A stretch of DNA of 64,000 nucleotides from a phage. Made by a program: the position numbers and the translations under genes. Positions 257 through 61,917 of this stretch are shown here, in pieces (the first letter of the stretch is position 1; every line of letters starts with the position of its first letter). The notes beneath the pieces are model-generated. The model did not search any database. It was not told where the DNA came from and worked only from the letters and a program-made list of their open reading frames with translations. The stretch lies in the sequence record PX880099.1. One strand, given 5' to 3'.

Positions 257-284
257 TTGACACAGATCGCCAGTGTGCTAATAT
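257..284 (+). promoter_or_regulatory. sigma70-like promoter (TTGACA-16-TAATAT) followed by conserved leader CACGTAGGGCGG and hairpin 295-313
   Basis: TTGACA 257-262, TAATAT 279-284; leader hairpin GGGCGGCAATGGTGCCGCC. Confidence 0.6.
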
Positions 285-331
285 TTACCACGTAGGGCGG
301 CAATGGTGCCGCCGATAATGAGGAAAATAAA

Positions 332-2894: not shown

Positions 2895-2920
2895 GGGCGC
2901 ACCAAGCGCCCTTTCTTTTT
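2895..2920 (+). terminator. rho-independent terminator GGGCGCACCAAGCGCCC + TTTCTTTTT
   Basis: GC stem followed by T-rich tract; closes the left gene block. Confidence 0.65.
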
Positions 2921-3505
2921 GCCCGAACAATATTGATAGCTTTCGCCTATGAAAAACCGACACAGAACAAAACTGAATAAATCGCGGTATCGAGCTAATC
3001 AACCAGCAAACGAATAACCATACCTCCCAGGGTTACAGGCTGTTAGAGAGCCATTTAGAGCGGTTAAAATCGATCAACAACCAACAACAAACCATCAAAA
3101 ACACCCTTTTACCTCCTTTCTAGTGCAATGATAACCATTATCATCTACCCATGATTATCTATGCAATATAAGCGCATAATTATAATGTTGATAATAGTTC
3201 GCAACAACTAACCAACAAACAACATAAAACAATAAGCAAACTAATCATAATCAAAGGAATAATAGCAAGATGATTGATAACGACAAACAATCAAACCATG
3301 ATGAATACTAAGCAAGATAACGATAACACGACAAAACAACCAACTAACGAACAATAACAAACGAAACCATTAAAATAATAACTATTAGCAAAATAGTGCA
3401 TGAATGAAATCATTACAAAACGAATCATTCATAGAGTCATCATTAGCACGCTATGCCGGACACATAGCGAGCTAATAATAAGCCAACTACACCCCAACAA
3501 TCATA

Positions 3506-3568
3506 ACCATCGGTGATGGTTATTTCTTGTTACTGCGTAGCTTGCAATAATTGCAAGCGTAATGACGC
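3506..3568. repeat. cluster of short inverted repeats inside the ORF-free region
   Basis: ACCATC-GGT-GATGGT (3507-3521); GCTTGCAA-TAA-TTGCAAGC (3540-3558); GCGT-AATG-ACGC (3557-3568). Confidence 0.6.
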
Positions 3569-4200
3569 TTACACTTATTGCGCTGGCTTATTATTAGCAT
3601 TATATGTAATTACCAAGATCATAACATTAGCGCAATAACAATAATCATTGTGGTAATTACGTAAGGAAACAATTAGCATGGCAATAATTATGGGGGCAAT
3701 GGGAGGATGATTATCATCATTCCGATACATTGCACACTATGCACATAATAGAATAAAAAGCAATAATTTTGGGGGCGAAATGTTACCGCCACAGGCGGGA
3801 ATGTTGAGCAAGTTCTCTTAAACGTAAATAAAATCAGAATAATCTTGATTTATTTTAGTTTTTATGTTAATAAACGTTTAAATAATAATCATTCTCATAT
3901 AAATAATAGTCTGCTTGTCATGAGCGGGATTAGTTGACAATGTTCCGTCATATGATGAGGTTGCCAAGCCATTGATAAATAAGTGTTTGTGTGATTTATA
4001 ATCAGGTGGCCCACCTTGTCGCTATGTTGGCATGAGCCTTGCATAAGTCATTGAATACGAATGATAATTATTCTCATTCGCATGATATTTGGGAATTGTC
4101 GCTGCGTGGACCTGACGGCCCGAAAATTCGCGTTAAGCACTTCTTACGTATGCACCATGATTTTTGCCATATCATATTGATTCTATTAGATATTCTTGCC

Positions 4201-14537: not shown

Positions 14538-14861
14538 ATGCAAGCAGTTGTTAACGAAGCTATTATGAACTTATCCTTCTTGTTAGCTGGTTTAGGAGGT
14601 GTTCTCATAGGTTTGGCTCTTATCTGGTGTATTCGTCGATTAATCGGGTACCGACAAAAAGGTGTTTCATGTTTTGTATCTTACAATTTTACAACTGCTT
14701 ACAGCAATGAGGTTGGATCTGGTAATGCTCAAGCATTTTTACCAACATATCCTCCTACGGTGGAAGATATTCGAAACTTGGAAGTAGAACTTATGGGACT
14801 AAGTGATAACTATACATCTCTCGTTATTCAAAATATTTTTCGACTAAAACAGGAGGCGTGA
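14538..14861 (+). CDS. membrane protein (107 aa)
   Basis: TM segment LSFLLAGLGGVLIGLALIWCI. Confidence 0.5.
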   Translation: MQAVVNEAIMNLSFLLAGLGGVLIGLALIWCIRRLIGYRQKGVSCFVSYNFTTAYSNEVGSGNAQAFLPTYPPTVEDIRNLEVELMGLSDNYTSLVIQNIFRLKQEA

Positions 14862-15074
14862 ATGAAGGCACATTACCCTCATCCCTTTGATCCTAAAAAC
14901 AAAGCCGTAATTCTTCGTCAGTGGCAACGGGTTTGTCGTACTAAATGTCCAATTAATAGCCAACACAATGTGGACAAGGACTATCTTGGGACATTTGTTG
15001 AATACACTTACATAGACAAAAACAAGCGTAAACAACATGTCGAGGAATACTGTTTAAGAGTAGAATGGCTGTAA
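14862..15074 (+). CDS. hypothetical protein (70 aa)
   Basis: Coupled ORF. Confidence 0.5.
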   Translation: MKAHYPHPFDPKNKAVILRQWQRVCRTKCPINSQHNVDKDYLGTFVEYTYIDKNKRKQHVEEYCLRVEWL

Positions 15075-15086: not shown

Positions 15087-15115
15087 TTGACAAGTGTTTA
15101 TTCGTTTTGTAAAGT
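15087..15115 (+). promoter_or_regulatory. sigma70-like promoter (TTGACA-17-TAAAGT)
   Basis: TTGACA 15087-15092; TAAAGT 15110-15115. Confidence 0.5.
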
Positions 15116-15144
15116 GAGAATACAGCAATGGTTTAGGAGTGGTT

Positions 15145-15816
15145 ATGAAAAAGTTTGTTGTTTACAGTCGTCTTTCTAAACAGAAAAAAGGTGAGGCACA
15201 ATATGGTATGGAGAGCCAAGAGAATGATATCCGTTACTTCTTAGACTCTGTGCCTGATGCGGAAGTTATTGGTCAATTTTCTGAATACTATTCTGGTAAG
15301 GGCGATTGGAAGCAACGTAAGGAACTGGTTAAAGCGGTTGAAATGTGTAAAGCTACCGGAGCAACTTTATTGGTAGCTAAAGTTGACCGCTTGGGTCGTA
15401 ACAACGCCTCCGTAGCAACTCTTCTGGAGATGATCGATGTTAAGATAGCCATCATGCCAGACGCAGATAAAATGGTTATACAGCTTCTATCTGTTCTGGC
15501 TGAACAAGAAGTTAGAGGTATTGCTGATCGTATTAAAAAGGGTCTTGCTGTAGCAAAAAGTAAAGGTGTTTTATTAGGTAGTGCTAATCCTAAAACTGCC
15601 GCTGCACGTAGAAAAGGAAAAATGGAATACAACTCTGTTAAAGCAGACGCTTTTGCAGAGACATTCCGTGAACGCTTGGAGATCCTTAGAGATTTAAATA
15701 CACCTTACAAAACTATTGCTGAAAAATTCAATAGTAAGAAAATAGCAACAGCACGTGGTGGTAAATGGGATGCTAAAACTGTTTCTCGTTTGTGTGCCAG
15801 ACTTAACATTAAATAG
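15145..15816 (+). CDS. serine recombinase (resolvase/invertase family)
   Basis: N-terminal catalytic motifs VVYSRLSKQKKGE...G.ESQ and LLVAKVDRLGRN; C-terminal recombinase-like segment GGKWDAKTVSRL. Confidence 0.8.
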   Translation: MKKFVVYSRLSKQKKGEAQYGMESQENDIRYFLDSVPDAEVIGQFSEYYSGKGDWKQRKELVKAVEMCKATGATLLVAKVDRLGRNNASVATLLEMIDVKIAIMPDADKMVIQLLSVLAEQEVRGIADRIKKGLAVAKSKGVLLGSANPKTAAARRKGKMEYNSVKADAFAETFRERLEILRDLNTPYKTIAEKFNSKKIATARGGKWDAKTVSRLCARLNIK

Positions 15817-16590: not shown

Positions 16591-16862
16591 TGGATAGACA
16601 AACCTTAAAAACAATGGCAGATGCCACTAATTCCCCGTACTTTGAAAAAGTAAGTAAATTGGTAGCTCAAGCCGCAGAGGAAGGATATTATAACATAAAC
16701 ATCCACAACCCAAGTCTTATACTAGAAATGCCAAGTGATAAGAAGATACAAGAAAGTATCTGTGAAGGTATTGTTAGTTACTGGCGCGAGCGTGGGTGTG
16801 GTGCAAACATGGCTTTAGACAGTGCAAACATTGTAAGATATATAAATATTTCTTGGGGGTGA
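16590..16862 (+). CDS. hypothetical protein (90 aa)
   Basis: ATGA-coupled. Confidence 0.5.
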   Translation: MDRQTLKTMADATNSPYFEKVSKLVAQAAEEGYYNINIHNPSLILEMPSDKKIQESICEGIVSYWRERGCGANMALDSANIVRYINISWG

Positions 16863-26741: not shown

Positions 26742-27014
26742 CTAACACATTGAGGAAGAAGAGATCCAAACACCTCTTGTGGTTAAACCATTTTCATCCA
26801 ACTCTACACCATAATCTTCACAAATGAAATCAATATAGTGATCTGCGGCTGGCGTTCCTGTAGGGTAATAAGTTTCTCCGTTACCGTAGTCACCTATCCA
26901 AGCTTGTTCCTGGAACTGTTCACAAAGTTCTTCAATTTCCTTACGAAACTTTCTTTGTGCTTGTTCCATCTCTTTAACTTTCTTTTTTATCAGCAGTTCG
27001 CCTTCAGATTCCAC
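26742..27014 (-). CDS. small protein with C-terminal W-x-SSSS-x-C tail (family C, member 1)
   Basis: C-terminus TRGVWISSSSMC. Confidence 0.5.
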   Translation of the reverse strand: MESEGELLIKKKVKEMEQAQRKFRKEIEELCEQFQEQAWIGDYGNGETYYPTGTPAADHYIDFICEDYGVELDENGLTTRGVWISSSSMC

Positions 27015-27726: not shown

Positions 27727-28000
27727 AAAATTTCTCCTCTCCTAAAGACATGTTGACATGAAATGCACGATATGTAAATTCGTTGTCCGTTGTGTTTGAA
27801 TAAAACTCAAATTGAACAACACCGTCTTGAGAAGACAGATACATGCCAATTTGAACTGTTCCTTCTGGTACCAGGTAAGCATACTCTGGACGTAGTGTTA
27901 CATTGTAAAAATAAAGTTCCCCAACACCCATTTCATCCCAAGCTTCCCAAGCGGTAACGAAGTTACTTTCAAAACTTGTTACTGATCCGAACTCTGCCAT
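27710..28000 (-). CDS. hypothetical protein (96 aa)
   Basis: ORF. Confidence 0.5.
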   Translation of the reverse strand: MAEFGSVTSFESNFVTAWEAWDEMGVGELYFYNVTLRPEYAYLVPEGTVQIGMYLSSQDGVVQFEFYSNTTDNEFTYRAFHVNMSLGEEKFYDDQV

Positions 28001-28491
28001 AAAACCTCCTCAATCTTGTAGTTTGACTCCATCTCCAACACATTTCCACGAACGTCTCTCCGAAGAAAGGCATAAGCTTTATTAGGTATTGTAGACTCAT
28101 ATTTAACCATATCTGGCACAGCAAAAGATACTACTACTCCTGCTGGGCTTCTGTCAAGAGCCTTATTAATATTTCTAAGGATATCGTTAGCCAAGATTTC
28201 TGCCAATTCTCCAAGAACAGTTTCGGTTATATCTTTATATCCCATTAAGTATTTGTTGATATCTTTCATCTCTGTATTGTTCAGAGTATAGTCCAAAGGA
28301 TAGAAATTCAAAGCGGAGTCACTTTTATGTGTCCACATGAAATGCACCCGATCCGAGCAGAATCGTAACCCTCTGTGAAGAATATCTTCTACAACAGGGA
28401 GAATTTCTTTTGTCACATCATTAACCATGTTGTAATCTAAGATTTCTGCCAAGTTTGTTCTTTGTTCACCACGTTTACGTTTAGGAATCAC
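27979..28491 (-). CDS. hypothetical protein (170 aa)
   Basis: ORF. Confidence 0.5.
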   Translation of the reverse strand: MIPKRKRGEQRTNLAEILDYNMVNDVTKEILPVVEDILHRGLRFCSDRVHFMWTHKSDSALNFYPLDYTLNNTEMKDINKYLMGYKDITETVLGELAEILANDILRNINKALDRSPAGVVVSFAVPDMVKYESTIPNKAYAFLRRDVRGNVLEMESNYKIEEVLWQSSDQ

Positions 28492-29062
28492 TTGTTATTG
28501 CCCTCATTACCAAAGGTCGTAGAAAATCGTAAATCTCTTGTTTTGTTTTCCCACGAATGTTTAAACAAGGAACATTATTGGCTTTAGCTATCTTCCAAGC
28601 CGTAGCTGTTCCACCTTTTGCATCTCCATGTTTATCAGTATTAGCACAAGCCAACAAGAAACATGATGGAGCAGGATTCTCCAAATCTCTACCTAACACT
28701 TGATGCACATTACGTTGGTGCAATTTTCTAGCACCCTGCTTAAGCTTTTCATAGGCTGGGTGAACATCTTTGATCCATTGCACAGAGATAGCATAGTTCA
28801 TTGTATCTGGTTTTGCAAGAACAATAACATCCCCTGGAATCTGATTACCTTTGAAATTTTCCCAAGGAACATAAATCTCCTTGTTAGTAGGATTTTCAGA
28901 CTCTTGGACACCTGTTTCAAAAGCAGAATCACTACCCTCTGCCTTCCCAGACCTTAATTTAAACCCAAGGTTTGAAAGCCATTTCCCTATGCCTACCATC
29001 AAAGCCCACTCTTCTTCGGATATGTCTCTACTTCCAACTCCCGTATAGAACAGTTCTGCCAT
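28481..29062 (-). CDS. DprA/Smf-like (SLOG-type Rossmann fold) protein
   Basis: FYTGVGSRD ... RSGKAEGSDSAFETG resembles the GxR ... SGGAxGxDxxA pattern; start at ATG 29062 (SD GAGGTG). Confidence 0.4.
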   Translation of the reverse strand: MAELFYTGVGSRDISEEEWALMVGIGKWLSNLGFKLRSGKAEGSDSAFETGVQESENPTNKEIYVPWENFKGNQIPGDVIVLAKPDTMNYAISVQWIKDVHPAYEKLKQGARKLHQRNVHQVLGRDLENPAPSCFLLACANTDKHGDAKGGTATAWKIAKANNVPCLNIRGKTKQEIYDFLRPLVMRAITSDS

Positions 29063-29069
29063 AATCACC

Positions 29070-29378
29070 TCAACAAGTAATTTCAAAAGGTGTATAGGGT
29101 TCCGTATTTCTCATGATCCAAGGACTGCTAGGATTGCTCGGATCATAAGGACCGAAAGGTTTTATGGTAGGTTGTGTTTCTTTCTTCTGAATCTCTTCAA
29201 AAATACGACGAAGTTCAGAATATTCTTGATCCACCATAAGATTCGGTGCATCTGATTCTACAGCTTGCAGGTTATTTTCCTTAAAAACAACCTCACGAAC
29301 AAGATTAACATCCTCTGTTTCTAAGATAACTTCTTTACGGATATTACCTACACTTTGAATAATTGTAATCTTATACAT
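29070..29378 (-). CDS. hypothetical protein (102 aa)
   Basis: ORF. Confidence 0.5.
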   Translation of the reverse strand: MYKITIIQSVGNIRKEVILETEDVNLVREVVFKENNLQAVESDAPNLMVDQEYSELRRIFEEIQKKETQPTIKPFGPYDPSNPSSPWIMRNTEPYTPFEITC

Positions 29379-30121
29379 TAATCCTCCTCAAGAGTTGAAT
29401 AAAATTGAAGACCACCGTCCATATCGAAATAAGCAAATGTTAAGTTATTATTGAACACAGATCCAGTATCCATATAAACACGATTCGCATTGATAATAGG
29501 TGTTTTTACATAAGAGTGTCCATGAAACACATAATCCACACCCATCACAACAGGAAGTTTCATTCCCTCTTTAGCACAGTCTACCATGTCTCTGTCCCAC
29601 ATAAGTGCTTCAGCAAAACGGTTTTCCTGTGTTTTTGTCATCTTCAAAATGTATTCTGGAATATCTGTTACAGGGAGATATTCCAAAGAAGATGGATACC
29701 CACCATGAATAAACGCAAGTTTCATGCCTCTGTAGTTAACAATGAGAACAACAGGTAAATCTTCTGTCATCATTGCTAAGGCTGTAGCTCCTTCTTCACC
29801 ACATTCTTCAAGGACCGTATATCCTCCATTTTGATACCAACACTCGAAGTAGCTACGATCTCCTTCCAGCATACCTTTAATCATCATATCTTCATGATTT
29901 CCACGAACAGCGTAGCGATTGTGTTTACGAGTAAATTCTAAAACACAACGAAAGTTTTGCTTTCCACGGTCAGTAAGATCTCCTAAAGATACAACTACAT
30001 CTGTATCTCGGATACCTAACTTTGCCTTTCCTTTTTCATACAAATTATAACAACCGTGTAGATCTCCAATTATAAAAAGATCTTGATCGCTTTTAACAGT
30101 AATTTCTCTGTGTATGATCAC
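29378..30121 (-). CDS. Ser/Thr protein phosphatase (calcineurin-like metallophosphoesterase)
   Basis: GDLHG, GDLTDRG, GNHE motifs. Confidence 0.85.
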   Translation of the reverse strand: MIIHREITVKSDQDLFIIGDLHGCYNLYEKGKAKLGIRDTDVVVSLGDLTDRGKQNFRCVLEFTRKHNRYAVRGNHEDMMIKGMLEGDRSYFECWYQNGGYTVLEECGEEGATALAMMTEDLPVVLIVNYRGMKLAFIHGGYPSSLEYLPVTDIPEYILKMTKTQENRFAEALMWDRDMVDCAKEGMKLPVVMGVDYVFHGHSYVKTPIINANRVYMDTGSVFNNNLTFAYFDMDGGLQFYSTLEED

Positions 30122-30447
30122 TTATCCTCCTCAAAATCTAAGAAAATAAAAATATTTACCTTTCCTTCAATCTCTTGTTCTAAAACAAGATCGGCAAATT
30201 CTGCATAAGCTTTCTCTTCAACTTTTTCAATATGTTCTGCGGCATCTTTAAAAGGTGTATCCCCATCCACCTTTACTAATAAGAAAAGAGATCGCATTTC
30301 GACGCTTTTACTGTTACGAGGAAGGAAATCTACAGCTTCAACAATTCTCCAACCCAAATAGCCAGGGGTTTTATGAATCTCCCCTAAATACTTTTCTAAG
30401 ATTTTACGACCCTCGTCGATAAGGGCTTGTTCTGTAGTAATTTCCAT
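30118..30447 (-). CDS. hypothetical protein (109 aa)
   Basis: ATGA-coupled ORF. Confidence 0.5.
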   Translation of the reverse strand: MEITTEQALIDEGRKILEKYLGEIHKTPGYLGWRIVEAVDFLPRNSKSVEMRSLFLLVKVDGDTPFKDAAEHIEKVEEKAYAEFADLVLEQEIEGKVNIFIFLDFEEDK

Positions 30448-30457
30448 TCCTTCCTCC

Positions 30458-31048
30458 TCAAATTATTAACGAAACCGCATGACTAAATCTTGGTTCAGAT
30501 ATAACCTCTGCTACAGTCACATATGTATCGTGCAGCCAAAAAGATTCTACTCTACAAACACAAATACCGTTGATAATGAAATCTACACAGGATTTATTAT
30601 TTTCGCACACCTGTTGACTATAAACAACCCCTAAAGAGTCATAAAGTGATCTCACTGTTGCTATCATTTCATCTGTTTCGTCTTCCTGTGAAACAAAGAA
30701 AACGAATACAGACAAGTTATTAGCGAAAGTATTGCTATTCTCTACTTCAACCGACTTACAAGGTAAAAAGGAGTAATATTTACCGCTAGGTATCAATTTC
30801 GCCTCAACCTGGTTAAGTATGCTTTGAGATGGTTTTGTTACATAAAAAAGATTTTCTGTTGGGTTTTCAACATTACTCCTTACTATGCAACGAGTGGGGT
30901 TCGAAGGATCAAAAACATGATCGAAATCGACACACACAGGTAAGTTAACAACTTTAAACTTTTTGCTAAGAATGCTTACTGCTGTAAAAATCAAACCAGC
31001 ATTTATTTTGCCAGTGAAAGTTGAACGCATAACTACTCCTCGGATCAT
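30458..31048 (-). CDS. hypothetical protein (196 aa)
   Basis: ORF. Confidence 0.5.
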   Translation of the reverse strand: MIRGVVMRSTFTGKINAGLIFTAVSILSKKFKVVNLPVCVDFDHVFDPSNPTRCIVRSNVENPTENLFYVTKPSQSILNQVEAKLIPSGKYYSFLPCKSVEVENSNTFANNLSVFVFFVSQEDETDEMIATVRSLYDSLGVVYSQQVCENNKSCVDFIINGICVCRVESFWLHDTYVTVAEVISEPRFSHAVSLII

Positions 31049-31239
31049 TCTACCAAAGAGAATTCCGCCTCTTCCAGGTAGATTACAGACCTTGTTGCAT
31101 GATATTTAACGCTCCAGAAATTACCTTCGCGCCGTAAAAGTATCTCATTCACATCAAGATTGCTTAGAAAAACCATATAACTTAAAGCTTGTTGACGCGT
31201 TGAGAATTGTTTCTCTAAAAGTTCTTCTCCGCTCTGCAT
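31045..31239 (-). CDS. hypothetical protein (64 aa)
   Basis: Coupled ORF. Confidence 0.45.
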   Translation of the reverse strand: MQSGEELLEKQFSTRQQALSYMVFLSNLDVNEILLRREGNFWSVKYHATRSVIYLEEAEFSLVE

Positions 31240-31284
31240 AATCCCTCCTTAAAATACTCCCTCCGAAAAGGGAGTATAAGTATA

Positions 31285-31488
31285 TCACGTAGTTGTTATG
31301 TTGTCTTCTTGGATACTAGAATCCACTTCTGCAAACATATCTTCTGCACTGTAATTATTTCCAGTCCAGCGTGATAAAAGGACAGCACCAATCTCTTTTG
31401 CATGAGATTCGGACTCCGCATAAACGTTAGTCCCAGTGTCACCTTTTTTCTTTTCATGTGCATAAATGCAGTAATAATTGTAAGCCAT
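31285..31488 (-). CDS. hypothetical protein (67 aa)
   Basis: ORF. Confidence 0.45.
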   Translation of the reverse strand: MAYNYYCIYAHEKKKGDTGTNVYAESESHAKEIGAVLLSRWTGNNYSAEDMFAEVDSSIQEDNITTT

Positions 31489-31724
31489 TAGTCTTCCCAG
31501 TCATTGTCCTCGGTAGAGTGAACCAAAGCTCGCACGATACCACCGTAATCTACTGCCTGATTTGCAGCATGTTCGGCATAAACTTCAATGGCTTTTTTGA
31601 AGAAAAGAGCAGTAGCTGCTTCAATATTATCCATTTCGCCATCTACATCAGTAGAAAGTGAAAGGTTGAGGCTTTCATCTACTTCATCAAAATCAATAGC
31701 CACTGTCATAATTAGTTTACCCAT
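31488..31724 (-). CDS. hypothetical acidic protein (78 aa)
   Basis: ORF. Confidence 0.45.
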   Translation of the reverse strand: MGKLIMTVAIDFDEVDESLNLSLSTDVDGEMDNIEAATALFFKKAIEVYAEHAANQAVDYGGIVRALVHSTEDNDWED

Positions 31725-31736
31725 AGTTCACACTCC

Positions 31737-32246
31737 TTAAACAAAATAAAATGGTTGAGAGAGGCCCAAACGATTCTTTGGGTCGTATACATACCAAGCG
31801 TATGCTGTCTTATCTGTTCCACCTGCAACAAACGAAGGCCGTTCTGAAAGGACTATAAGGTTCGTTGGTGGATTCTTTTGATGGAACTCTCGTCGTTTCT
31901 TTGACTCCAAGAAGCCCAACCGAAGAAGATAAATACAAACATCCGCCTCTTTTAAGCTCTTTTCCAAGAACTCCATTGCTAACTTGAATGGAGGATTTGT
32001 GATTATAATGTCGGGACGATTTTCCCATTCATGACTAAAATAATCTTTACCTTCTTCAAGTTCACAATATTCTGAACCTTCAGGAAAATGGCGATAAATC
32101 GCTTCAGCTTCACCTCTACAAGGTTCTGCAAAAACCCAACCTTCTTCCTTTAGATTTTTGAAATCTATAACACTAAACAAACTATTGATTGCTTTTTGCG
32201 GTGTCGGATAATAATCGCTCGTTGGGCGATCATAATCTAATGCCAT
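31737..32246 (-). CDS. putative DNA methyltransferase (NPPF motif, N6A/N4C class)
   Basis: DIIITNPPF (motif IV-like). Confidence 0.4.
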   Translation of the reverse strand: MALDYDRPTSDYYPTPQKAINSLFSVIDFKNLKEEGWVFAEPCRGEAEAIYRHFPEGSEYCELEEGKDYFSHEWENRPDIIITNPPFKLAMEFLEKSLKEADVCIYLLRLGFLESKKRREFHQKNPPTNLIVLSERPSFVAGGTDKTAYAWYVYDPKNRLGLSQPFYFV

Positions 32247-32664
32247 CTAAAATCTCCTCTTTTGTAATATTATCCAACTCTTTAAAGGATGAAATCTCAT
32301 TTAATAATCCTATTTGATCAGCCTCTAGAGGATAAGTGTTTTTATCTGTTTTTCTAGACAGAATATCTTCAACAAACTTATCAATAGCCAAAGAAGAATC
32401 ATAAAATTTTAAAAGTTGGTAATCCATAGGAGATATTTTGTCATCTCTTAGAAATATTTCTAACATGTTTTCAGGAGTATCGTGGTTTAGTTTATGTTCA
32501 CCAAAAATATTAACTTCGTAAACATCTTTGCCAAACCAACGTTTTTTCTTTTCAACAGTATAGGTTTTTGCCACCAGACCATCTAAACAGTTTCTTGCCC
32601 TCTTACATGTTTGACGGTAAGAGTGGATAGCGCCTTCAACAAACTTAGCAGGAACTTGTAACAT
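32230..32664 (-). CDS. hypothetical protein (144 aa)
   Basis: ORF. Confidence 0.5.
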   Translation of the reverse strand: MLQVPAKFVEGAIHSYRQTCKRARNCLDGLVAKTYTVEKKKRWFGKDVYEVNIFGEHKLNHDTPENMLEIFLRDDKISPMDYQLLKFYDSSLAIDKFVEDILSRKTDKNTYPLEADQIGLLNEISSFKELDNITKEEILDGIRL

Positions 32665-32709
32665 TATTAATCTCCTATGTTTAAGAAATGCCCCCGAAGG
32701 GGCAGTTTG

Positions 32710-33402
32710 TTAAATAGCGGTTCCTTCGAAATCCGCCACATTTACGAGATTAATATTTTCAGATTTAGAAGTCAAGTTGTTTTCTGCAACAGATTTTTCT
32801 TCAGTATCCGCCTCGTTACCTGCCACGTTACGAGGTTCTTCTTCACCGTAGGGATTACCGAATTTCAAAAGATTGATTAATTCTTCTTTGGAGAAGTTTT
32901 CTAAATCATCGTCTGTTAATTCAATAATCTCGTCTTGTTCTTCAATAAATGTTTCACCACCAGAAAAAGCATCTCGCTTTTTAGCTACTTCCATAGCCTG
33001 TTCTGGTGTTGCCCCTGCATCAAGAGCAGCTAAAGCAAAGTCTGACCCACTCCCCACTGCATAATATTCTTCATCAATCGGATATGCACGTGTTGGGTTG
33101 TTACCTTCGTGCAGGAAAATACGTCCGTCTGGATGAACAACAAGTGCAATAAACTCTTCATCTTCTTTGTCTGGATCAGAATGAATCATCAAACCAGGGA
33201 CAGCATCGCGTGCTGCTTCGCACTGTAGATTTTGTTCAAACCATTGAAAGAAAGAAAGCACGGAGGTCAGACGACCAGCACCACCTACAAGGTAATCTCC
33301 AATTTTTCGGACCTTTTTGAAATTAATAGAATCTACACGTCCACCAAAAGTTACCTTACCATCACTCAAAATCTTATTTTTGGTTGCAATAATTGTCGTC
33401 AC
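32710..33402 (-). CDS. HslV-like Ntn-hydrolase peptidase (proteasome beta-type) with acidic C-terminal extension
   Basis: MTTIIATKN (Thr right after Met), GGAG, AVGSGSDFALAAL resemble HslV TTIV...GFAGG...AIGSGG..A.AAA. Confidence 0.6.
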   Translation of the reverse strand: MTTIIATKNKILSDGKVTFGGRVDSINFKKVRKIGDYLVGGAGRLTSVLSFFQWFEQNLQCEAARDAVPGLMIHSDPDKEDEEFIALVVHPDGRIFLHEGNNPTRAYPIDEEYYAVGSGSDFALAALDAGATPEQAMEVAKKRDAFSGGETFIEEQDEIIELTDDDLENFSKEELINLLKFGNPYGEEEPRNVAGNEADTEEKSVAENNLTSKSENINLVNVADFEGTAI

Positions 33403-33905
33403 TATTCTTCCTCCTCTGTTAATGTTTTAAGAACCGCTTTCCCGCCATTCACATATTTGCAGATGTATTCTATCGCACGTAGTGTCTCTTTGTCAACAAA
33501 AATTTGATCAGACGTTGCGAGCGGGTTATTAAGAAGATCACTGCAATCACGAACAAGCAGTGCTTTCTTATTAAACAAATTACTTAAGAACAGTAACTTC
33601 GCCTCTTCTTCTGTTATATGCAGAAGGCTAGGATCGGAGCCAGCTATTCCTATTATACAATCAAACAAGCTTTCTTTACTATCAGAAAGTTCTTGAAAAT
33701 GGTTTAAAAGCCAATCTTCTCCTAGACACCAACATTTAAACATTTCCAGTTTATCTCGGAGGGTCATATTCTCTAAAGTAAGAGCAATCTCTTTTTCAAT
33801 ATGGTTTACACAAATTTGACGAAATTCGTTAGGTTTTACGAGTCCCGTTTGATAGCACTCATCTATACCGCTTCTTCCGATAGCTATTGTTGCTACACCC
33901 ATCAA
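33402..33905 (-). CDS. hypothetical protein (167 aa) upstream of HslV-like gene
   Basis: ATGA-coupled to HslV-like ORF. Confidence 0.5.
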   Translation of the reverse strand: MMGVATIAIGRSGIDECYQTGLVKPNEFRQICVNHIEKEIALTLENMTLRDKLEMFKCWCLGEDWLLNHFQELSDSKESLFDCIIGIAGSDPSLLHITEEEAKLLFLSNLFNKKALLVRDCSDLLNNPLATSDQIFVDKETLRAIEYICKYVNGGKAVLKTLTEEEE

Positions 33906-33937
33906 TCCTCCTTATAAATGGCTTCCCTGCCATGTTA

Positions 33938-34696
33938 TTAAATAAACACTTCAGTAATCAGTTTAGACAAACGTCCACGTTTATTATCGTCCGTTGTCAG
34001 TTCAACGTATCCAATAAAATCTACAATTGGCTCACGAACACCTTCTTCATTTTCTGGATACAAAAGTTCCAAAATTTGATGCAGACCATTGCTACGTTTT
34101 TTAATTGCATATGTCTGGCGAACATCGCCTAATACAATAACATGCGTATTAATACCTGCACGTTCAATAAGAAGTTTAAGTGTTTCTGTTGACATAAGTT
34201 GTGCTTCGTCAATAATGACGATTGTATTATCCAGGGTAGCCCCCAACAAATAGTTAGGAATATTCAATTCGATCTTACCTGATCCAATATCGTTTTCCAA
34301 TTTGTTGGCTGTCATGAATTGCTGGAAAATACGTTTTGTAGATTCATAGTGTGCTGCTAGTTTATCTGTTTTATCCCCAGACAAGAAACCAATCTGGTCA
34401 TCTCCGACTTCAGTAGGGTTCTTAATAAAAAGTAGTTTACGGAAGTCTCCTGAACGAAGCATCTGCAAAGCTTTCCATAAAGCAACAGAGGTTTTACCAG
34501 TCCCTGCCGGAGCATTTACAACAGTCAGATCATTCCAAATCATACTTTGAACAATCTTATTTTGGTCCCCTTCAGGCATAAATTCATCTAAACGGTAATC
34601 GTCATTACCTACCGCTTTTGCTGCATAACGGCTTTCAATCTTTGCTGAATTAGCCAGTTTCTGCCGTTGTGTTTTAGCTGCGGTTTTATTTCCCAT
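33938..34696 (-). CDS. phoH: PhoH-like ATPase
   Basis: Walker A NAPAGTGKT; Walker B IIDEAQ; start taken at ATG 34696 (MGNKTAAK). Confidence 0.85.
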   Translation of the reverse strand: MGNKTAAKTQRQKLANSAKIESRYAAKAVGNDDYRLDEFMPEGDQNKIVQSMIWNDLTVVNAPAGTGKTSVALWKALQMLRSGDFRKLLFIKNPTEVGDDQIGFLSGDKTDKLAAHYESTKRIFQQFMTANKLENDIGSGKIELNIPNYLLGATLDNTIVIIDEAQLMSTETLKLLIERAGINTHVIVLGDVRQTYAIKKRSNGLHQILELLYPENEEGVREPIVDFIGYVELTTDDNKRGRLSKLITEVFI

Positions 34697-34714
34697 AGTA
34701 GCACTCCTTTTAGA

Positions 34715-34730
34715 AGGGGCCGAAGCCCCT
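34715..34730 (-). other. conserved hairpin AGGGGCCGAAGCCCCT (copy 2 of 3)
   Basis: Between lysozyme stop and phoH start. Confidence 0.6.
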
Positions 34731-34733
34731 TTA

Positions 34734-35234
34734 TTAGTTGTAAGCATCTAAAGTTCCAGAAGTCAGAACTTTAATTACTCGTTCAGCACGGTTTGGCGTC
34801 TGGCTATACCATCGGCTTTTACGCATGTTTTTACCTGCTTGAGTATAATATGCATTGCTGATTAAAGTCAAGCTATTTTGAAACCCTTCAGCACCTTTTA
34901 ACCCCAACTGGAAAACCATGTTGATTATTCCCAATTTACGAGTATCACTAACCTTATCATAGATTGGTGATAAGATAGTACTGTTTTTTATGTCTCTCTT
35001 CACTTTTGCAACATCGTCAGCAAAGATTTGACGGGCTTCTTTTTCTGTGATAACTCCATTAGTCTTACGACCAAGAAGATTATCTAAGATTTGAATAGCC
35101 TTTGCTTTATCTTTTATTTTAGTCAGAAGGTGTCCTATGCCGACTGTCCAATAACCAAGATGGTCTTGATAAACAGTAAGCTTCAGTCCTTCATCGACTC
35201 GTAGCATATCAAACTCATCTACTACTTTAGCCAT
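34734..35234 (-). CDS. T4-type lysozyme (endolysin, GH24)
   Basis: LRVDEGLKLTVYQDHLGYWTVGIGHLLTK and C-terminal RWYSQTPNRAERVI closely match T4 lysozyme. Confidence 0.95.
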   Translation of the reverse strand: MAKVVDEFDMLRVDEGLKLTVYQDHLGYWTVGIGHLLTKIKDKAKAIQILDNLLGRKTNGVITEKEARQIFADDVAKVKRDIKNSTILSPIYDKVSDTRKLGIINMVFQLGLKGAEGFQNSLTLISNAYYTQAGKNMRKSRWYSQTPNRAERVIKVLTSGTLDAYN

Positions 35235-58217: not shown

Positions 58218-58470
58218 TCTAGCCTCCTAAACGCGTCTCTGACGCACTTTTTATATATAAGATGATAAATCACCTTACCTCATAAGTAAACTTGCTCCAC
58301 GAGCCTCTTATGAAGCTTACGTCATAGGTTATACTATTGCTACCTATTTAAGCAAGTTTTTGCACACAGAAAATAATTTTTAATAAAACTCTTGACTTTT
58401 GTGTTCGAAGTATGCTACCCTAGAAATCTATTAACGAGCGCAGCGAGTTAAGGTTTTAGGTTGTTGATGT

Positions 58471-58505
58471 AGTACTCTGTACTCAAGTACTGTACTCCGT
58501 ACTAG
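58471..58505. repeat. tandem GTACT-containing iterons
   Basis: AGTACTCTGTACTCAAGTACTGTACTCCGTACTAG; further GTACAG copies at 58562-58585 and 58659-58668. Confidence 0.6.
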
Positions 58506-58506
58506 A

Positions 58507-58546
58507 TTAATAATTATTAAATATTCATAATAAATAATTATTAGAT
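58507..58546. repeat. AT-rich block with AATAATTATT direct repeats
   Basis: AATAATTATT at 58509 and 58535. Confidence 0.5.
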
Positions 58547-58636
58547 CTAACAAATAGGTACAGTGTATCAGAACTGGTATGTACAGATCAACTTCTATCA
58601 ATTAAAAATAAAATAATAAATTATTATAAATAATAC

Positions 58637-58665
58637 TTGATTTATAGATTAGTATGAAGTACAGT
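58637..58665 (+). promoter_or_regulatory. rightward sigma70-like promoter (TTGATT-17-TACAGT)
   Basis: TTGATT 58637-58642; TACAGT 58660-58665; 33 nt before ATG 58698. Confidence 0.4.
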
Positions 58666-58697
58666 ACGAAACATCTTAACAAGAATGGAGGTGTGCA

Positions 58698-60158: not shown

Positions 60159-60244
60159 GGTAGATTGGTGAAATGGTAGCCACAACAGTTTGCTAAACTG
60201 TAGTCGGAAACGGCGTGTAGGTTCGAGTCCTACATCTACCGCCA
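60159..60244 (+). tRNA. tRNA-Ser (GCT), type II
   Basis: Acceptor GGTAGAT/ATCTACC, anticodon loop TTGCTAA, long variable arm, T-arm GTAGG-TTCGAGT-CCTAC. Confidence 0.75.
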
Positions 60245-60415
60245 AGTTATCTTTAATGTAGCTTGTTGCTCTTAGTTGCTTGGTGTAACTTTTTGGAAGG
60301 ATGGCTGCAACCATCTTACTTTAATAGAGTAAACTTTCGGCAGATGGCCCCCACCATCTTACCGATACCTCATAGTCAGTGGTGCGAACACTGGCTATTT
60401 TAAAGATAATTTTAT

Positions 60416-60490
60416 ACATCGTTAGCCAAGCGGTAAGGCACTTGACTTTTAATCAAGGGAGCGAAGGTTCGAATCCTTCACGATGTACCA
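60416..60490 (+). tRNA. tRNA-Lys (TTT)
   Basis: Acceptor ACATCGT/ACGATGT, anticodon arm CTTGA-CTTTTAA-TCAAG, T-arm GAAGG-TTCGAAT-CCTTC. Confidence 0.7.
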
Positions 60491-60495
60491 AACAC

Positions 60496-60582
60496 GTAGG
60501 TATCGCATAGCGGCAATTGCTGGAGACTGTAAATCTCCTGCCCTTCGGGGCTTCGTTGGTTCGAGTCCAACTACCTGCACCA
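60496..60582 (+). tRNA. tRNA-Tyr (GTA), type II
   Basis: Acceptor GTAGGTA/TACCTGC, anticodon arm GGAGA-CTGTAAA-TCTCC, long variable arm, T-arm GTTGG-TTCGAGT-CCAAC. Confidence 0.75.
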
Positions 60583-60589
60583 AATTAAA

Positions 60590-60674
60590 GATGGATTGGC
60601 CTAGTGGTTGGGCGACGGACTGTTAATCCGTGAACGAAAGTTCTAGCAAGGTTCAAATCCTTGATCCATCGCCA
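60590..60674 (+). tRNA. unusual type II tRNA with anticodon GTT (Asn codons) on a Ser/Tyr-like scaffold
   Basis: Perfect acceptor GATGGAT/ATCCATC, discriminator G, 3-bp D-stem GCC/GGC, anticodon arm ACGGA-CTGTTAA-TCCGT, 15-nt extra arm GAACGAAAGTTCTAG, T-arm CAAGG-TTCAAAT-CCTTG. Confidence 0.6.
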
Positions 60675-60753
60675 AATAGTGCTTGTAGAGTTAATAGAAA
60701 CCTCTAGAATTTTCTAGAATTGTAGATATCAAATCCTACCAAGCAAATATTTT

Positions 60754-60828
60754 GCTCCTATCGTATAACGGCTATTACGGTTGCCTTGTAAGCAACTTAT
60801 CAGGGTTCGAGTCCTTGTGGGAGCACCA
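60754..60828 (+). tRNA. tRNA-Thr (TGT)
   Basis: Acceptor GCTCCTA/TGGGAGC, anticodon arm GTTGC-CTTGTAA-GCAAC, T-loop TTCGAGT. Confidence 0.7.
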
Positions 60829-60850
60829 ATTTAACTCTAAAGGAGTGTAT

Positions 60851-61174
60851 GTGACAGAAAAAGAGTTAGAGAAATATTTTAATATCAATGTTTTCGATGG
60901 TTTTGATGATATTGAAGATGTTGAAAGATATTATGAAGTAGAGTTAGATAAGGATAACATTGTAATTCTTTCTGCCACTTATGATTGTGCATATTATGAA
61001 GGTGAATCTCACGTTTATTTCTATGATATGAAAACATCTTTGTTTTATGAAGTACACGCATATCATTGTTCTTGTTATGGCTTAGAAGGTCAGTGGGAAC
61101 CTGAAGAAATAGGTGATTTGAGCTTTACGGTTGCATATCTAAACAGACGTGGTGCATCTACTATTTTAAAATAA
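60851..61174 (+). CDS. hypothetical protein inside tRNA cluster (107 aa, GTG start)
   Basis: SD TAAAGGAG then GTG 60851; track ORF (from TTG 60752) trimmed because it overlaps tRNA-Thr. Confidence 0.5.
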   Translation: MTEKELEKYFNINVFDGFDDIEDVERYYEVELDKDNIVILSATYDCAYYEGESHVYFYDMKTSLFYEVHAYHCSCYGLEGQWEPEEIGDLSFTVAYLNRRGASTILK

Positions 61175-61188
61175 ATATTAAAAGCCTC

Positions 61189-61218
61189 TTGACAAAGGGG
61201 CTAATAATATGTTAGAGT
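61189..61218 (+). promoter_or_regulatory. promoter, tRNA-cluster type (TTGACA-N11-ATGTTAGAGT)
   Basis: TTGACA 61189-61194; ATGTTAGAG 61209-61217. Confidence 0.5.
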
Positions 61219-61229
61219 AATATTGTTAA

Positions 61230-61304
61230 GCGGGTATAGTGTTAATGGTAGCATATGAGGTTTCCACCCTCCAGGTGCAGGTTCAAGTCCTGTTACTCGC
61301 TCCA
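61230..61304 (+). tRNA. tRNA-Gly (TCC)
   Basis: Acceptor GCGGGTA/TACTCGC, discriminator T, anticodon loop TTTCCAC, T-loop TTCAAGT. Confidence 0.7.
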
Positions 61305-61404
61305 AGATTATTTAAATGGAATCGCTAGAGAAAATTTCTCTTTTCGCTCATGGTTTTCTCCTTCAAACTCTAGCGGTTCTTTTTAAGTGATTTTTTAGTT
61401 TTAT

Positions 61405-61479
61405 TGGAGATTAGCCTAGTGGGAAGGCAACGGCCTTTGAAGTCGTGATGACTAGGTTCGATTCCTAGATCTCCAGCCA
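61405..61479 (+). tRNA. tRNA-Gln (TTG)
   Basis: Acceptor TGGAGAT/ATCTCCA (U1-A72 as in E. coli Gln), discriminator G, anticodon loop CTTTGAA, T-arm CTAGG-TTCGATT-CCTAG. Confidence 0.7.
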
Positions 61480-61486
61480 ATATTTA

Positions 61487-61562
61487 CAGTGCGTAGCGCA
61501 GTTGGTAGCGTGGGAGCTTTGGACGCTTCAGGTCGCAGGTTCGAGTCCTGCCGCACTGACCA
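61487..61562 (+). tRNA. tRNA-Pro (TGG)
   Basis: Acceptor CAGTGCG/CGCACTG (C1-G72), anticodon arm GGAGC-TTTGGAC-GCTTC, T-arm GCAGG-TTCGAGT-CCTGC. Confidence 0.75.
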
Positions 61563-61567
61563 AATTT

Positions 61568-61642
61568 GCAGAGATAGCTGAGACGGATTAGTGCTACCCT
61601 GAAAAGGTAGAAAGGATGGATCGTTACCATCTCTCTGCACCA
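61568..61642 (+). tRNA. tRNA-Phe (GAA), non-canonical T-loop
   Basis: Acceptor GCAGAGA/TCTCTGC, anticodon arm CTACC-CTGAAAA-GGTAG, T-arm GATGG-ATCGTTA-CCATC. Confidence 0.6.
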
Positions 61643-61719
61643 AATAACACCATCCAAGGAGTAGACTTGGTTAACTGTCAATAGCACATTGAGGCTTCTT
61701 ACAGTGGTGTACTTATTAT

Positions 61720-61804
61720 GGCTAAGTGGTGGAATGGTATACACGATACGCTTAGAACGTATTGCCCCAAGGGATTGTGAGTTCGAGTCTCACCTTAGCT
61801 ACCA
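61720..61804 (+). tRNA. tRNA-Leu (TAG), type II
   Basis: Acceptor GGCTAAG/CTTAGCT, discriminator A, anticodon arm ATACG-CTTAGAA-CGTAT, long variable arm, T-arm GTGAG-TTCGAGT-CTCAC. Confidence 0.7.
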
Positions 61805-61819
61805 AATTATTAGATGTTT

Positions 61820-61898
61820 CGCGGGATAGAGGAGTCTGGTCGTCCTCGCCAGTTTCATATGCTGGAGATCGTTGGTTCAAATCCAACTCCCGTTACCA
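61820..61898 (+). tRNA. initiator-like tRNA-fMet (CAT)
   Basis: 5' CGCGGGA like E. coli initiator CGCGGGG; 1:72 mismatch (C/U); A11:U24 in D-stem; anticodon loop TTCATAT; T-arm GTTGG-TTCAAAT-CCAAC. Confidence 0.55.
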
Positions 61899-61917
61899 AA
61901 TTTTGCAAGGAGATAAA

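What the first reader, a model, noticed from the sequence alone, without database searches (positions are those of the whole stretch)
15145..15816. Small serine recombinase in the early region of a lytic-type genome
The ORF has clear resolvase/invertase catalytic motifs but no attachment site, excisionase or repressor was seen nearby, and it sits among small early genes behind its own promoter. It could drive an invertible segment elsewhere in the genome, resolve replication dimers, or be a remnant of a mobile element.
Basis: partly seen in the sequence, partly recalled or inferred. Interest (0 to 1): 0.5.

Follow-up and report, generated by a model that had tools for sequence, protein, structure and literature searches.

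The report
Orphan serine recombinase in lytic phage
The ORF is a real, intact and strongly conserved small serine recombinase gene of phAPEC8-like (Phapecoctavirus) lytic coliphages; it is already annotated in public genomes, and I could find no DNA target for it, so its role remains an inference (most likely it acts on the phage's own replicating DNA).

Summary
Window 15145-15816 (+) encodes a 223-aa serine recombinase (Pfam Resolvase, E=5e-18). All catalytic residues (Y7, R9, S11, D81, R82, R85) are invariant in 44 homologues. A sigma70-like promoter (15087-15115) sits directly upstream.

The window is a Phapecoctavirus, a ~150-kb lytic myovirus. The protein is >=99% identical in 63 public genomes (dN/dS 0-0.02) and 57% identical in the sister genus (phi92). 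Many records already annotate it as resolvase, DNA invertase or serine recombinase.

It is a one-gene cassette of promoter plus ORF. The cassette sits at a different locus and on the other strand in the sister genus, and it has no conserved partner gene.

I found no invertible segment. There are no flanking inverted repeats above chance, and no inversion among the Phapecoctavirus genomes compared. There is no res-like site next to the gene, and no prophage or plasmid form in 5,426 E. coli genomes.

Its C-terminal domain resembles the 'Recombinase' domain of large serine integrases, not the Hin/gamma-delta HTH. The closest non-phage relatives sit on small plasmids next to par genes or res-like dyads, and in prophages.

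Best guess (about 0.35): an early enzyme that resolves or circularises phage replication intermediates. This is ordinary and already known, with function untested.

The parts
15087..15115 (+). sigma70-type promoter of the recombinase cassette (-35 TTGACA 15087-15092, 17-nt spacer, -10 TAAAGT 15110-15115)
   Evidence: scores it 10/12, second best on the + strand in 12.5-18.5 kb. The hexamers, but not the spacer or the leader, are conserved in ESCO13, phiWec179 and PsgM04F, where they lie inside the 3' end of a different upstream ORF. Comparable TTGACA-type promoters sit directly upstream of the homologue in phi92, FKP3, ICP1, Shewanella 1/40 and VnaP.
15135..15139 (+). ribosome-binding site AGGAG, 5 nt before the ATG
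   Evidence: Read from the sequence.
15145..15816 (+). serine recombinase ORF, 223 aa including the stop codon
   Evidence: Nucleotide differences to 536P1, DIJ07P1 and ESCO13 are 9, 7 and 16 synonymous against 0, 0 and 1 nonsynonymous.
15145..15570 (+). catalytic domain plus long helix E (residues 1-142); catalytic Ser11 is encoded at 15175-15177
   Evidence: Pfam PF00239 covers residues 5-142. The model shows strands 2-10, 39-48 and 74-77 and helix 109-139. Foldseek matches Sin, gamma-delta and Bxb1.
15589..15801 (+). C-terminal four-helix DNA-binding domain (residues 149-219). The motif I-A-x-x-[FL]-N-x-x-x-x-x-T-x-R-G-x-x-W is of the type found in the 'Recombinase' domain (PF07508) of large serine integrases.
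   Evidence: Weak PF07508 hit at residues 187-216 and no HTH_7 hit even at E<=1. Several homologues carry precomputed PF07508 hits. The model has helices 149-172, 175-183, 188-197 and 210-219 with pLDDT ~90. A192, N196 and T202 are nearly invariant.
31045..31296 (-). the 'empty site': where the recombinase cassette sits in the sister genus (between the phi92 gp054 and gp052 homologues). Here it holds only a terminator-like hairpin and the gp052 homologue (31045-31239).
   Evidence: The phi92 locus gp061..gp045 is collinear with window 35234..27734 except for gp053, the recombinase. The small ORF 31045-31239 is 34.5% identical to phi92 gp052, E=3e-7. Sequence.

Best explanation
The ORF encodes a catalytically competent small serine recombinase. 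Host RNA polymerase transcribes it from its own promoter at the start of infection. It is kept because it benefits the phage. The most likely job is conservative site-specific recombination on the phage's own DNA: turning circular or head-to-tail multimers into monomers, or circularising the incoming terminally repeated genome, as plasmid resolvases and P1 Cre/lox do. The site would be single-copy and elsewhere in the genome, and it has not been identified. Shown: gene integrity, catalytic residues, fold, promoter, conservation, cassette nature, and the absence of an adjacent site, an invertible segment or a lysogenic form. Inferred: early expression, enzymatic activity, and above all the substrate and the biological role.
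For: Every catalytic residue of the family is invariant and the fold prediction is confident. Purifying selection is strong: 32 synonymous against 1 nonsynonymous difference among four Phapecoctavirus copies, and dN/dS 0.11-0.24 to more distant relatives. The gene is in 63 Phapecoctavirus records at >=99% aa identity and in the listed Justusliebigvirus records at ~57%. That identity falls within the range of 162 reciprocal-best orthologues (median 71%, lower quartile 54%), which fits vertical descent. A sigma70-type promoter lies directly upstream in every lineage examined. Full-length relatives with the same architecture (35-40% identity) are the only recombinase on 5.8-6.5 kb plasmids. One has a 34-bp dyad with a 2-bp centre and repeated half-sites just upstream of the gene. 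Another lies back-to-back with parA. These are the classic settings of multimer-resolution systems. In phi92 and Shewanella phage 1/40 the gene lies in a DNA-metabolism block with a DprA-like protein, and in 1/40 also a ligase. The subfamily has short direct terminal repeats (342 bp in BME3; PMC12210895), so it must pass through joined or circular forms. The one paper that comments on the gene makes the same guess (PMC10282059).
Against: No recombination site was found. The 60-70 bp upstream of the gene conserve only the promoter hexamers between phages whose proteins are ~100% identical, so there is no res or operator there. Genome-wide scans for 28-bp even-centred dyads gave chance-level numbers. 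Lytic phages that package from concatemers have no obvious need for monomerisation, and most manage without such an enzyme; rV5-type relatives gave no tblastn hit. In ICP1 the homologue is in only 8 of 85 matching records, so it is dispensable there. Tn3-type resolvases need supercoiled substrates, so circularising a linear genome would require different properties. Relatives in prophages look like invertases or integrases, so the family does not dictate the reaction.
Confidence: 0.35

Rival explanations
1. DNA invertase: it flips a segment elsewhere in the phage genome, for example in tail-fibre genes or a promoter block, to switch host range or expression, as Gin, Cin and Pin do.
For: PHROG 125 and many GenBank records call it 'DNA invertase'. 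A 43%-identical relative (P0071) lies beside tail/baseplate genes of a prophage that has its own large serine integrase. Three copies of TTGTTCTTCGA, one of them inverted, lie inside the neighbouring genes. Within the subfamily, a 1.3-1.5 kb three-gene block at a divergent-promoter junction (536P1 75.7-77.2 kb, outside the window) has opposite orientation in phi92/alia/BME3 compared with VEcB(MT932211) and all Phapecoctavirus.
Against: The only inverted repeats in the window and in whole genomes of both genera are terminator hairpins and chance-level 17-18-mers. The longest pair that flanks the gene (14672-14709 / 16808-16845, 74% complementary) lacks its left arm in ESCO13, which has the identical enzyme. 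There is no HTH_7 domain. Window, 536P1 and DIJ07P1 are collinear throughout. 61-63 of ~65 Phapecoctavirus records cover >=80% of each 25-kb or 4-kb query in one place. In the early region extra places were seen only where a record starts or ends, apart from one oddly assembled record. The inverted block in the sister genus has non-conservative junctions (about 200 bp of unrelated sequence, a gene fusion), no flanking repeats, and alleles that are more diverged than their flanks. It therefore looks like an old rearrangement.
Confidence: 0.1
2. It targets DNA that is not the phage's own: host chromosome switches, prophages, satellites or plasmids. It would serve as a host-takeover, anti-defence or competition factor.
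For: It is expressed from a host-type promoter among small early genes, which is where takeover and anti-defence genes usually sit. No site was found in the phage genome. In ICP1 it belongs to an alternative accessory block of early genes present in 8 of 85 matching records, the pattern typical of arms-race genes. It is a movable promoter+ORF unit.
Against: The idea rests only on circumstance and on absence of other evidence. No anti-defence role is known for any serine recombinase. The protein is invariant across phages isolated on many different E. coli, Shigella and Klebsiella hosts, so the target would have to be equally invariant. The PADLOC and anti-defence libraries were not searched.
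Confidence: 0.15
3. Selfish or neutral cassette: a moron-like gene that persists by hitch-hiking or its own mobility, with no benefit to the phage.
For: The unit is promoter + ORF only. It occupies different loci and strands in the two genera while the flanks stay syntenic. The upstream neighbour is itself swapped between close relatives and is shared with T4-like phages. The gene is sporadic in ICP1.
Against: Within each genus the location is fixed, and the gene is present in essentially every genome. Selection is strongly purifying. Divergence matches that of other orthologues. No terminal repeats or target duplications are seen at the cassette ends; the stop codon abuts the next gene's RBS.
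Confidence: 0.1
4. Integrase for a hidden lysogenic or carrier state.
For: Relatives at 33-37% identity sit at the edge of a P. aeruginosa prophage next to host genes, and in a primase/terminase-bearing island. PHROG 95 'integrase' also matches.
Against: Megablast of the gene and its flanks found no match in 5,426 complete E. coli genomes, plasmids included. No repressor or excisionase is present. All isolates are described as lytic.
Confidence: 0.03

Closest known systems
Plasmid multimer-resolution serine resolvases (the functional class of Tn3/gamma-delta TnpR, RK2 ParA, Sin and beta)
   Same: Catalytic domain with Y-R-S...D-R-x-x-R and a long helix E. Size is about 200-230 aa. The best PDB sequence matches are Tn3 and gamma-delta resolvase (E=3e-6 and 6e-6). 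The nearest non-phage homologues are on small plasmids beside par genes, with a dyad site upstream.
   Different: The C-terminal domain is not the HTH_7 of TnpR/Hin. There is no res site next to the phage gene. The replicon is a 150-kb lytic phage. Sequence identity to solved resolvases is low and limited to residues 45-146.
Hin/Gin/Cin/Pin DNA invertases
   Same: Small serine recombinase, phage-borne, and given the same database label (PHROG 125).
   Different: No HTH_7 domain. No adjacent invertible segment and no 26-bp inverted sites. No inversion polymorphism. Those enzymes belong to temperate phages and lie next to tail-fibre genes.
Large serine integrases (Bxb1, phiC31, TP901-1, LI)
   Same: Bxb1 is the top Foldseek hit over the whole model. 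The C-terminal motif matches positions 19-48 of Pfam PF07508.
   Different: Only 223 aa. It lacks most of the recombinase domain, the zinc ribbon and the coiled coil. No attP/attB or RDF context is present.
P1 Cre/lox (functional analogy only)
   Same: A phage-encoded site-specific recombinase that can circularise a terminally redundant genome and resolve dimers.
   Different: Cre is a tyrosine recombinase of a temperate plasmid-prophage with a known lox site. Here no site is known and the chemistry is different.

Membership tests
Serine recombinase superfamily (Pfam PF00239 Resolvase) | N-terminal catalytic domain scoring above the Pfam gathering cut-off | tested here: met
   66 bits against a cut-off of 23.3, residues 5-142.
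Serine recombinase superfamily (Pfam PF00239 Resolvase) | Nucleophilic Ser and the Tyr/Arg/Asp/Arg/Arg active-site set (gamma-delta Y6, R8, S10, D67, R68, R71) | tested here: met
   Y7, R9, S11, D81, R82 and R85 are invariant in 44 sequences. D81-R82-L-G-R85 aligns with the DRLGR motif of the Tn3 and gamma-delta resolvases; the correspondence of Y7, R9 and S11 to gamma-delta Y6, R8 and S10 is from knowledge of the family.
Serine recombinase superfamily (Pfam PF00239 Resolvase) | Catalytic activity (DNA cleavage and strand exchange) | not testable with these tools
   Needs biochemistry.
Hin/Gin-type DNA invertases | C-terminal HTH_7 (PF02796) DNA-binding domain | tested here: not met
   No such hit at E<=1; the C-terminus matches PF07508 instead.
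Hin/Gin-type DNA invertases | Two inverted ~26-bp sites flanking an invertible segment, usually next to the gene | tested here: not met
   nothing above chance. The flanking pair I1 is not conserved.
Hin/Gin-type DNA invertases | Orientation heterogeneity of the segment among or within isolates | tested here: not met
   Assemblies are collinear. Heterogeneity within a lysate is not testable without reads.
Hin/Gin-type DNA invertases | Fis-dependent enhancer | not tested
   There is no reliable sequence signature to search for.
Tn3/gamma-delta-type resolvases | Multi-subsite res immediately upstream, overlapping the gene's promoter | tested here: not met
   Only the promoter hexamers are conserved upstream among phages with identical enzymes. 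No shared dyad exists across lineages.
Tn3/gamma-delta-type resolvases | Association with a transposase or a plasmid replicon | tested here: not met
   The gene lies in a lytic phage genome with no transposase nearby.
Large serine integrases | Length of at least ~400 aa with a full recombinase domain, zinc ribbon and coiled coil | tested here: not met
   223 aa; PF07508 is matched only at profile positions 19-48 of 102. The model has four helices after helix E.
Large serine integrases | Integrated (prophage) form in host genomes | tested here: not met
   No match in 5,426 complete E. coli genomes.
YneB / Mpi / XisF / CcrB NCBIfam equivalogs | Score above the curated cut-off | tested here: not met
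   Scores of 32.5, 22.6, 27.4 and 17.5 bits against cut-offs of 175, 272, 375 and 900.

The most novel reading that the evidence does not exclude
Strictly lytic ~130-150 kb myoviruses (Stephanstirmvirinae and some Vibrio and Shewanella phages) keep an immediate-early, partner-less serine recombinase with a trimmed integrase-type DNA-binding domain. It would perform a reaction not yet described for lytic infection. One option is RecA-independent circularisation or monomerisation of a short-DTR genome at a cryptic site (a serine 'Cre/lox'). The other is site-specific rearrangement of host or rival mobile-element DNA as a takeover or counter-defence move.
Probability: 0.15. Interest if true: 0.6.

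Novelty: already known. Interest (0 to 1): 0.27.

Why it matters
The practical point is that recombinase genes are used as red flags when phages are screened for therapy. This one is universal in phAPEC8/phi92-type therapeutic candidates. It shows no sign of mediating lysogeny: no prophage or plasmid copies in 5,426 E. coli genomes, and no att site, repressor or excisionase. On the scientific side, a conserved early serine recombinase with no visible substrate in a lytic phage is a small open question. Finding its site would show either how short-DTR genomes are circularised or resolved, or a new kind of host manipulation. It could also yield a compact 223-aa recombinase for engineering. None of this is established here.

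Tried and rejected
1. The longest inverted repeat in the window (I1, 38 nt, 74% complementary) flanks the gene. I rejected it because its left arm is absent from ESCO13, which has the same enzyme, and both arms are coding.

2. A 26-bp dyad AATAAATACCTTGACAAGTGTTTATT overlaps the -35 hexamer. It is not conserved in ESCO13 or phiWec179. The 25-bp palindrome over the -10 in FKP3 is not kept in phi92.

3. Whole-genome self-comparison of 536P1 and alia gave only terminator hairpins, promoter-hairpin direct repeats and chance-level 17-18-mers. The even-centred 28-bp dyad scan was at chance level.

4. I considered the GATAATNATTATC-type palindromes near the genome end as sites. They are enriched, but they are odd-centred, lie at the DTR boundary in BME3, and keep their symmetry through compensatory changes. 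That points to packaging or structural signals rather than a crossover site.

5. The inverted three-gene block in the sister genus was followed through four genomes. It has no flanking repeats and its junctions are not conservative.

6. No conserved neighbour or RDF was found. Downstream genes are unrelated across lineages except within genera. A 367-aa protein recurs only in two Vibrio phages.

7. ICP1: the homologue lies in an alternative ~3.5-kb early block, with no clean insertion boundaries.

8. The site motif of the prophage relative (TTGTTCTTCGAC) was searched in the phage genomes and gave nothing meaningful.

9. Rfam on the non-coding terminus region gave nothing.

10. Literature: there are no experiments on this gene, only a one-line speculation.

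11. The population-level inversion test via search_dna_similar is coarse. Inversions under about 5 kb inside a 25-kb query could escape it. 536P1 50-74.5 kb and 78.5-90 kb, and window 28-64 kb, were tested only on three genomes plus cross-genus synteny.

Full report
**1. What is there**

The + strand ORF runs from ATG 15145 to TAG 15814-15816 and encodes 223 aa. An AGGAG ribosome-binding site lies 5 nt upstream. It matches Pfam Resolvase (PF00239) over residues 5-142 at E=5e-18. Residues 187-216 match the 'Recombinase' domain PF07508 weakly, and there is no HTH_7 hit. PHROG 125 'DNA invertase' matches at E=3e-32. No NCBIfam equivalog is reached.

In an alignment of 44 homologues down to ~30% identity, Y7, R9, S11, D81, R82 and R85 are invariant; from knowledge of the family these correspond to gamma-delta resolvase Y6, R8, S10, D67, R68 and R71. 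An AlphaFold model (pLDDT 88.8) shows the resolvase core, a long helix E (109-139) and a four-helix C-terminal domain. Its best structural matches are Bxb1 integrase and the Sin, gamma-delta and TP901-1 catalytic domains. By sequence, the nearest solved structures are the Tn3 and gamma-delta resolvases.

**2. Where it is**

The window is a Phapecoctavirus: phAPEC8-like, subfamily Stephanstirmvirinae, a ~150-kb lytic myovirus, with 95-99% nucleotide identity to 65 records. GenBank records already label this gene resolvase, DNA invertase, serine recombinase or recombinase family protein. Some label it, wrongly, as an ABC-transporter ATP-binding protein.

One paper notes the gene in phage SKA64 and guesses that it keeps concatemers as single genomes (PMC10282059). 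Another overlooked it (PMC10269720). I found no experimental work.

The 1.1-kb non-coding stretch at window 2920-4040 corresponds to the region holding the 342-bp direct terminal repeat reported for BME3 (PMC12210895). Several records start or end at window ~3.8-4.06 kb. The gene therefore lies about 11 kb inside the left end, in the rightward block of small early genes.

**3. Conservation**

The protein is >=99% identical in 63 records. It is 67-75% identical in outlying Phapecoctavirus-like phages, ~57% in Justusliebigvirus (phi92), and 52-55% in the Klebsiella phages FKP3 (Justusliebigvirus) and FBKp34. Identity is 30-38% in ~130-150 kb Vibrio and Shewanella phages, including some ICP1 isolates.

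Nucleotide differences among four Phapecoctavirus copies are 32 synonymous and 1 nonsynonymous. dN/dS to phiWec179, Tr1 and FKP3 is 0.11-0.24. The 57% identity to the sister genus lies within the spread of 162 reciprocal-best orthologues (median 71%, lower quartile 54%). The gene is functional and, within the subfamily, probably vertically inherited. It is neither a pseudogene nor a remnant.

**4. A one-gene cassette**

A TTGACA-17-TAAAGT promoter lies at 15087-15115. In ESCO13 and phiWec179 the same hexamers sit inside the 3' end of a different upstream ORF. Homology with the window starts exactly at the promoter. Equivalent promoters precede the homologue in phi92, FKP3, ICP1, Shewanella 1/40, VnaP and 277E43-1.

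Gene-order comparison of 536P1 with Justusliebigvirus alia shows everything collinear except two items. One is the recombinase itself. In the phi92 type it lies on the other strand, between the gp054 and gp052 homologues, inside a block of PhoH, HslV, a methyltransferase, a phosphatase and a DprA-like protein. That block is fully syntenic with window 35234-27734, but there the slot (31045-31296) holds only a hairpin and the gp052 homologue.

The movable unit is therefore promoter + ORF, about 0.73 kb. The stop codon abuts the next gene's RBS. No downstream or upstream gene is conserved across lineages, so there is no candidate accessory or directionality factor. In ICP1 the homologue sits in an alternative ~3.5-kb early block present in 8 of 85 matching records.

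**5. Search for a substrate**

(a) Adjacent site. Between phages with identical enzymes, only the -35 and -10 hexamers are conserved upstream. Dyads seen in single genomes are not shared.

(b) Inverted repeats. In the window and in whole genomes of both genera, the only convincing ones are terminator hairpins. The pair flanking the gene fails the conservation test. Even-centred 28-bp dyads occur at chance frequency.

(c) Inversions. Window, 536P1 and DIJ07P1 are collinear end to end. 61-63 of ~65 Phapecoctavirus records cover >=80% of 536P1 1-25 kb, 25-50 kb and 74.5-78.5 kb in one place. In the early region, extra places among the listed rows arise only where records start or end, apart from one oddly assembled record.

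(d) The second non-collinear item is a 1.3-1.5 kb three-gene block carrying divergent promoters (536P1 75.7-77.2 kb, outside the window). It is inverted in phi92, alia, BME3 and OZ035773 relative to VEcB(MT932211), ECGD1, PHB05 and all Phapecoctavirus. Its junctions are not conservative: about 200 bp of unrelated sequence, and one gene fused to its neighbour in alia. No repeats flank it. The two forms differ more inside the block than in the flanks. I read it as an old rearrangement that segregates by ordinary recombination, not as a live switch, but this was not excluded with read data.

(e) Lysogeny. No match to the gene and its flanks exists in 5,426 complete E. coli genomes, plasmids included.

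**6. What relatives do**

Full-length homologues with the same architecture (35-40% identity) occur on 124 plasmid records. Among them are 5.8-6.5 kb plasmids of Klebsiella, Synechococcus and Marinovum, where the homologue is the only recombinase and follows ~650 bp of non-coding DNA. The Klebsiella plasmid has a 34-bp dyad with a 2-bp centre (TATCATTTGTTTGCCG-AA-CGGCAAATTTATGATA) at -67 to -34, plus repeated TGATTTTTA half-sites. That is a textbook res-like layout. A 43%-identical metagenomic relative is divergent from parA next to a primase.

Other relatives look different. One lies at the edge of a P. aeruginosa prophage. One is in a primase/terminase island. One lies beside tail/baseplate genes of a prophage that has its own large serine integrase, with three copies of TTGTTCTTCGA, one inverted, in the neighbouring genes. 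The subfamily therefore covers resolvase-, integrase- and invertase-like settings, and homology alone does not fix the reaction.

**7. Best explanation**

An active, early-expressed serine recombinase retained for a phage-beneficial reaction. It most plausibly acts on the phage's own replicating DNA, resolving multimers or circularising the short-DTR genome. The supporting evidence is the plasmid-resolvase affinities, the DNA-metabolism neighbourhood in the likely ancestral locus (phi92, Shewanella 1/40), the early promoter, and the fact that a single site per genome suffices and would escape repeat searches.

Confidence is only ~0.35, because no site was found and lytic phages have no proven need for such an enzyme. 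The rivals are: action on host or foreign DNA (0.15), invertase (0.10), selfish cassette (0.10) and integrase (0.03). The remainder is unassigned.

**8. Comparison and novelty**

It works like, and belongs to, the serine recombinase superfamily. It fails the defining tests for Hin/Gin invertases (no HTH_7, no inverted sites, no heterogeneity). It fails those for Tn3-type resolvases (no adjacent res) and for large serine integrases (too short, no prophage form). Its small size combined with a stub of the integrase 'Recombinase' domain is shared with many plasmid 'recombinase family proteins', so the architecture is not new.

The gene is already annotated, and its possible role has already been speculated on. 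My additions are the negative evidence on inversion and lysogeny, the cassette relocation, and the selection data. Interest is low to moderate (0.27). The most novel reading still open is a serine 'Cre/lox' or a host-directed recombinase in lytic infection, at about 0.15 probability.

Noticed in passing
window 2920-4040: A 1.1-kb non-coding, A/C-rich region. It is homologous to the region carrying the 342-bp direct terminal repeat of BME3, and several public records start or end at window ~3780-4060, so this is probably the physical genome end. ATGATAAT/ATTATCAT-type palindromes are enriched here (5 of 17 window matches to GATAATNATTATC; 5.5 expected in the whole window).
   Followed up: partly
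window 3440-3610: Three palindromes: GCTATG-ccggaca-CATAGC, ATAACCATC-ggt-GATGGTTAT and GCTTGCAAT-a-ATTGCAAGC. They are bracketed by a 24-nt inverted repeat (3462-3485 / 3584-3607). Compensatory substitutions keep the dyads in 536P1, alia and BME3. There is no Rfam match. This may be a packaging, origin or structured-RNA element.
   Followed up: partly
window 279-310 and 1586-1617; 536P1 (L006) 82-92 kb; alia (L012) 81-90 kb: More than 10 direct copies of an early promoter plus GC-hairpin unit (…TAATATTTACCACGTAGGGCGGCAATGGTGCCGCTCA…). They resemble the promoter-stem-loop cassettes of T4-type phages. Indel breakpoints between genomes coincide with them.
   Followed up: partly
window 14862-15074: The 70-aa gene just upstream of the recombinase is a DUF7202 protein (E=2e-37). 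It is 77-82% nucleotide-identical to a gene of T4-like coliphages, and ESCO13 and phiWec179 carry an unrelated gene in its place. This looks like horizontal exchange between unrelated lytic phages. It is also the feature mis-annotated as an 'ABC transporter ATP-binding protein'.
   Followed up: partly
window 58218-58697: A 480-bp non-coding region at a divergent transcription point. It has five GTACT repeats at ~8-bp spacing, further GTACAG motifs, and two AT-rich 28-bp dyads (58512-58539, 58615-58642). It is partly conserved in the sister genus. The layout is origin-like: iterons plus an AT-rich stretch.
   Followed up: no
536P1 75.7-77.2 kb (L006 25700-27200); alia 74.6-75.9 kb (L012); L027, L028, L029: A three-gene block with divergent promoters has opposite orientation in two sets of Justusliebigvirus genomes. 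In alia one of its genes is fused in frame to the neighbouring gene. There are no flanking repeats and the junctions are not conservative. It lies outside the window.
   Followed up: yes
536P1 65730-66461 (L006 15730-16461): Two non-coding blocks are ~99% conserved between genera and are separated by a 485-bp insert in 536P1. The whole 779-bp stretch is absent from DIJ07P1. It looks like an intron or homing element. A separate 50-bp stretch, 100% conserved across genera (536P1 26900-26949), sits at the edge of a 2.4-kb insertion that DIJ07P1 lacks.
   Followed up: no
window 60217-62506: A cluster of repeats with tRNA T-arm and acceptor sequences (GGTTCGAnTCC…CCA), indicating a block of about 10 or more tRNA genes. 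It was not checked with ARAGORN.
   Followed up: no
L003 1745-5857 versus L019 2634-5603: Eight ICP1 records, including the 2017_DRC_48 isolate examined, carry an alternative ~3.5-kb early block in place of ORF31-ORF39 of reference ICP1. The block holds the recombinase homologue plus six ORFs with no family assignment.
   Followed up: partly
L030 109-127, 1550-1566, 4322-4345: In a bacterial prophage, a 43%-identical small recombinase lies beside tail/baseplate genes. Three copies of TTGTTCTTCGA, one inverted, lie inside those genes. This is a candidate multiple-inversion tail-fibre switch in this subfamily.
   Followed up: partly
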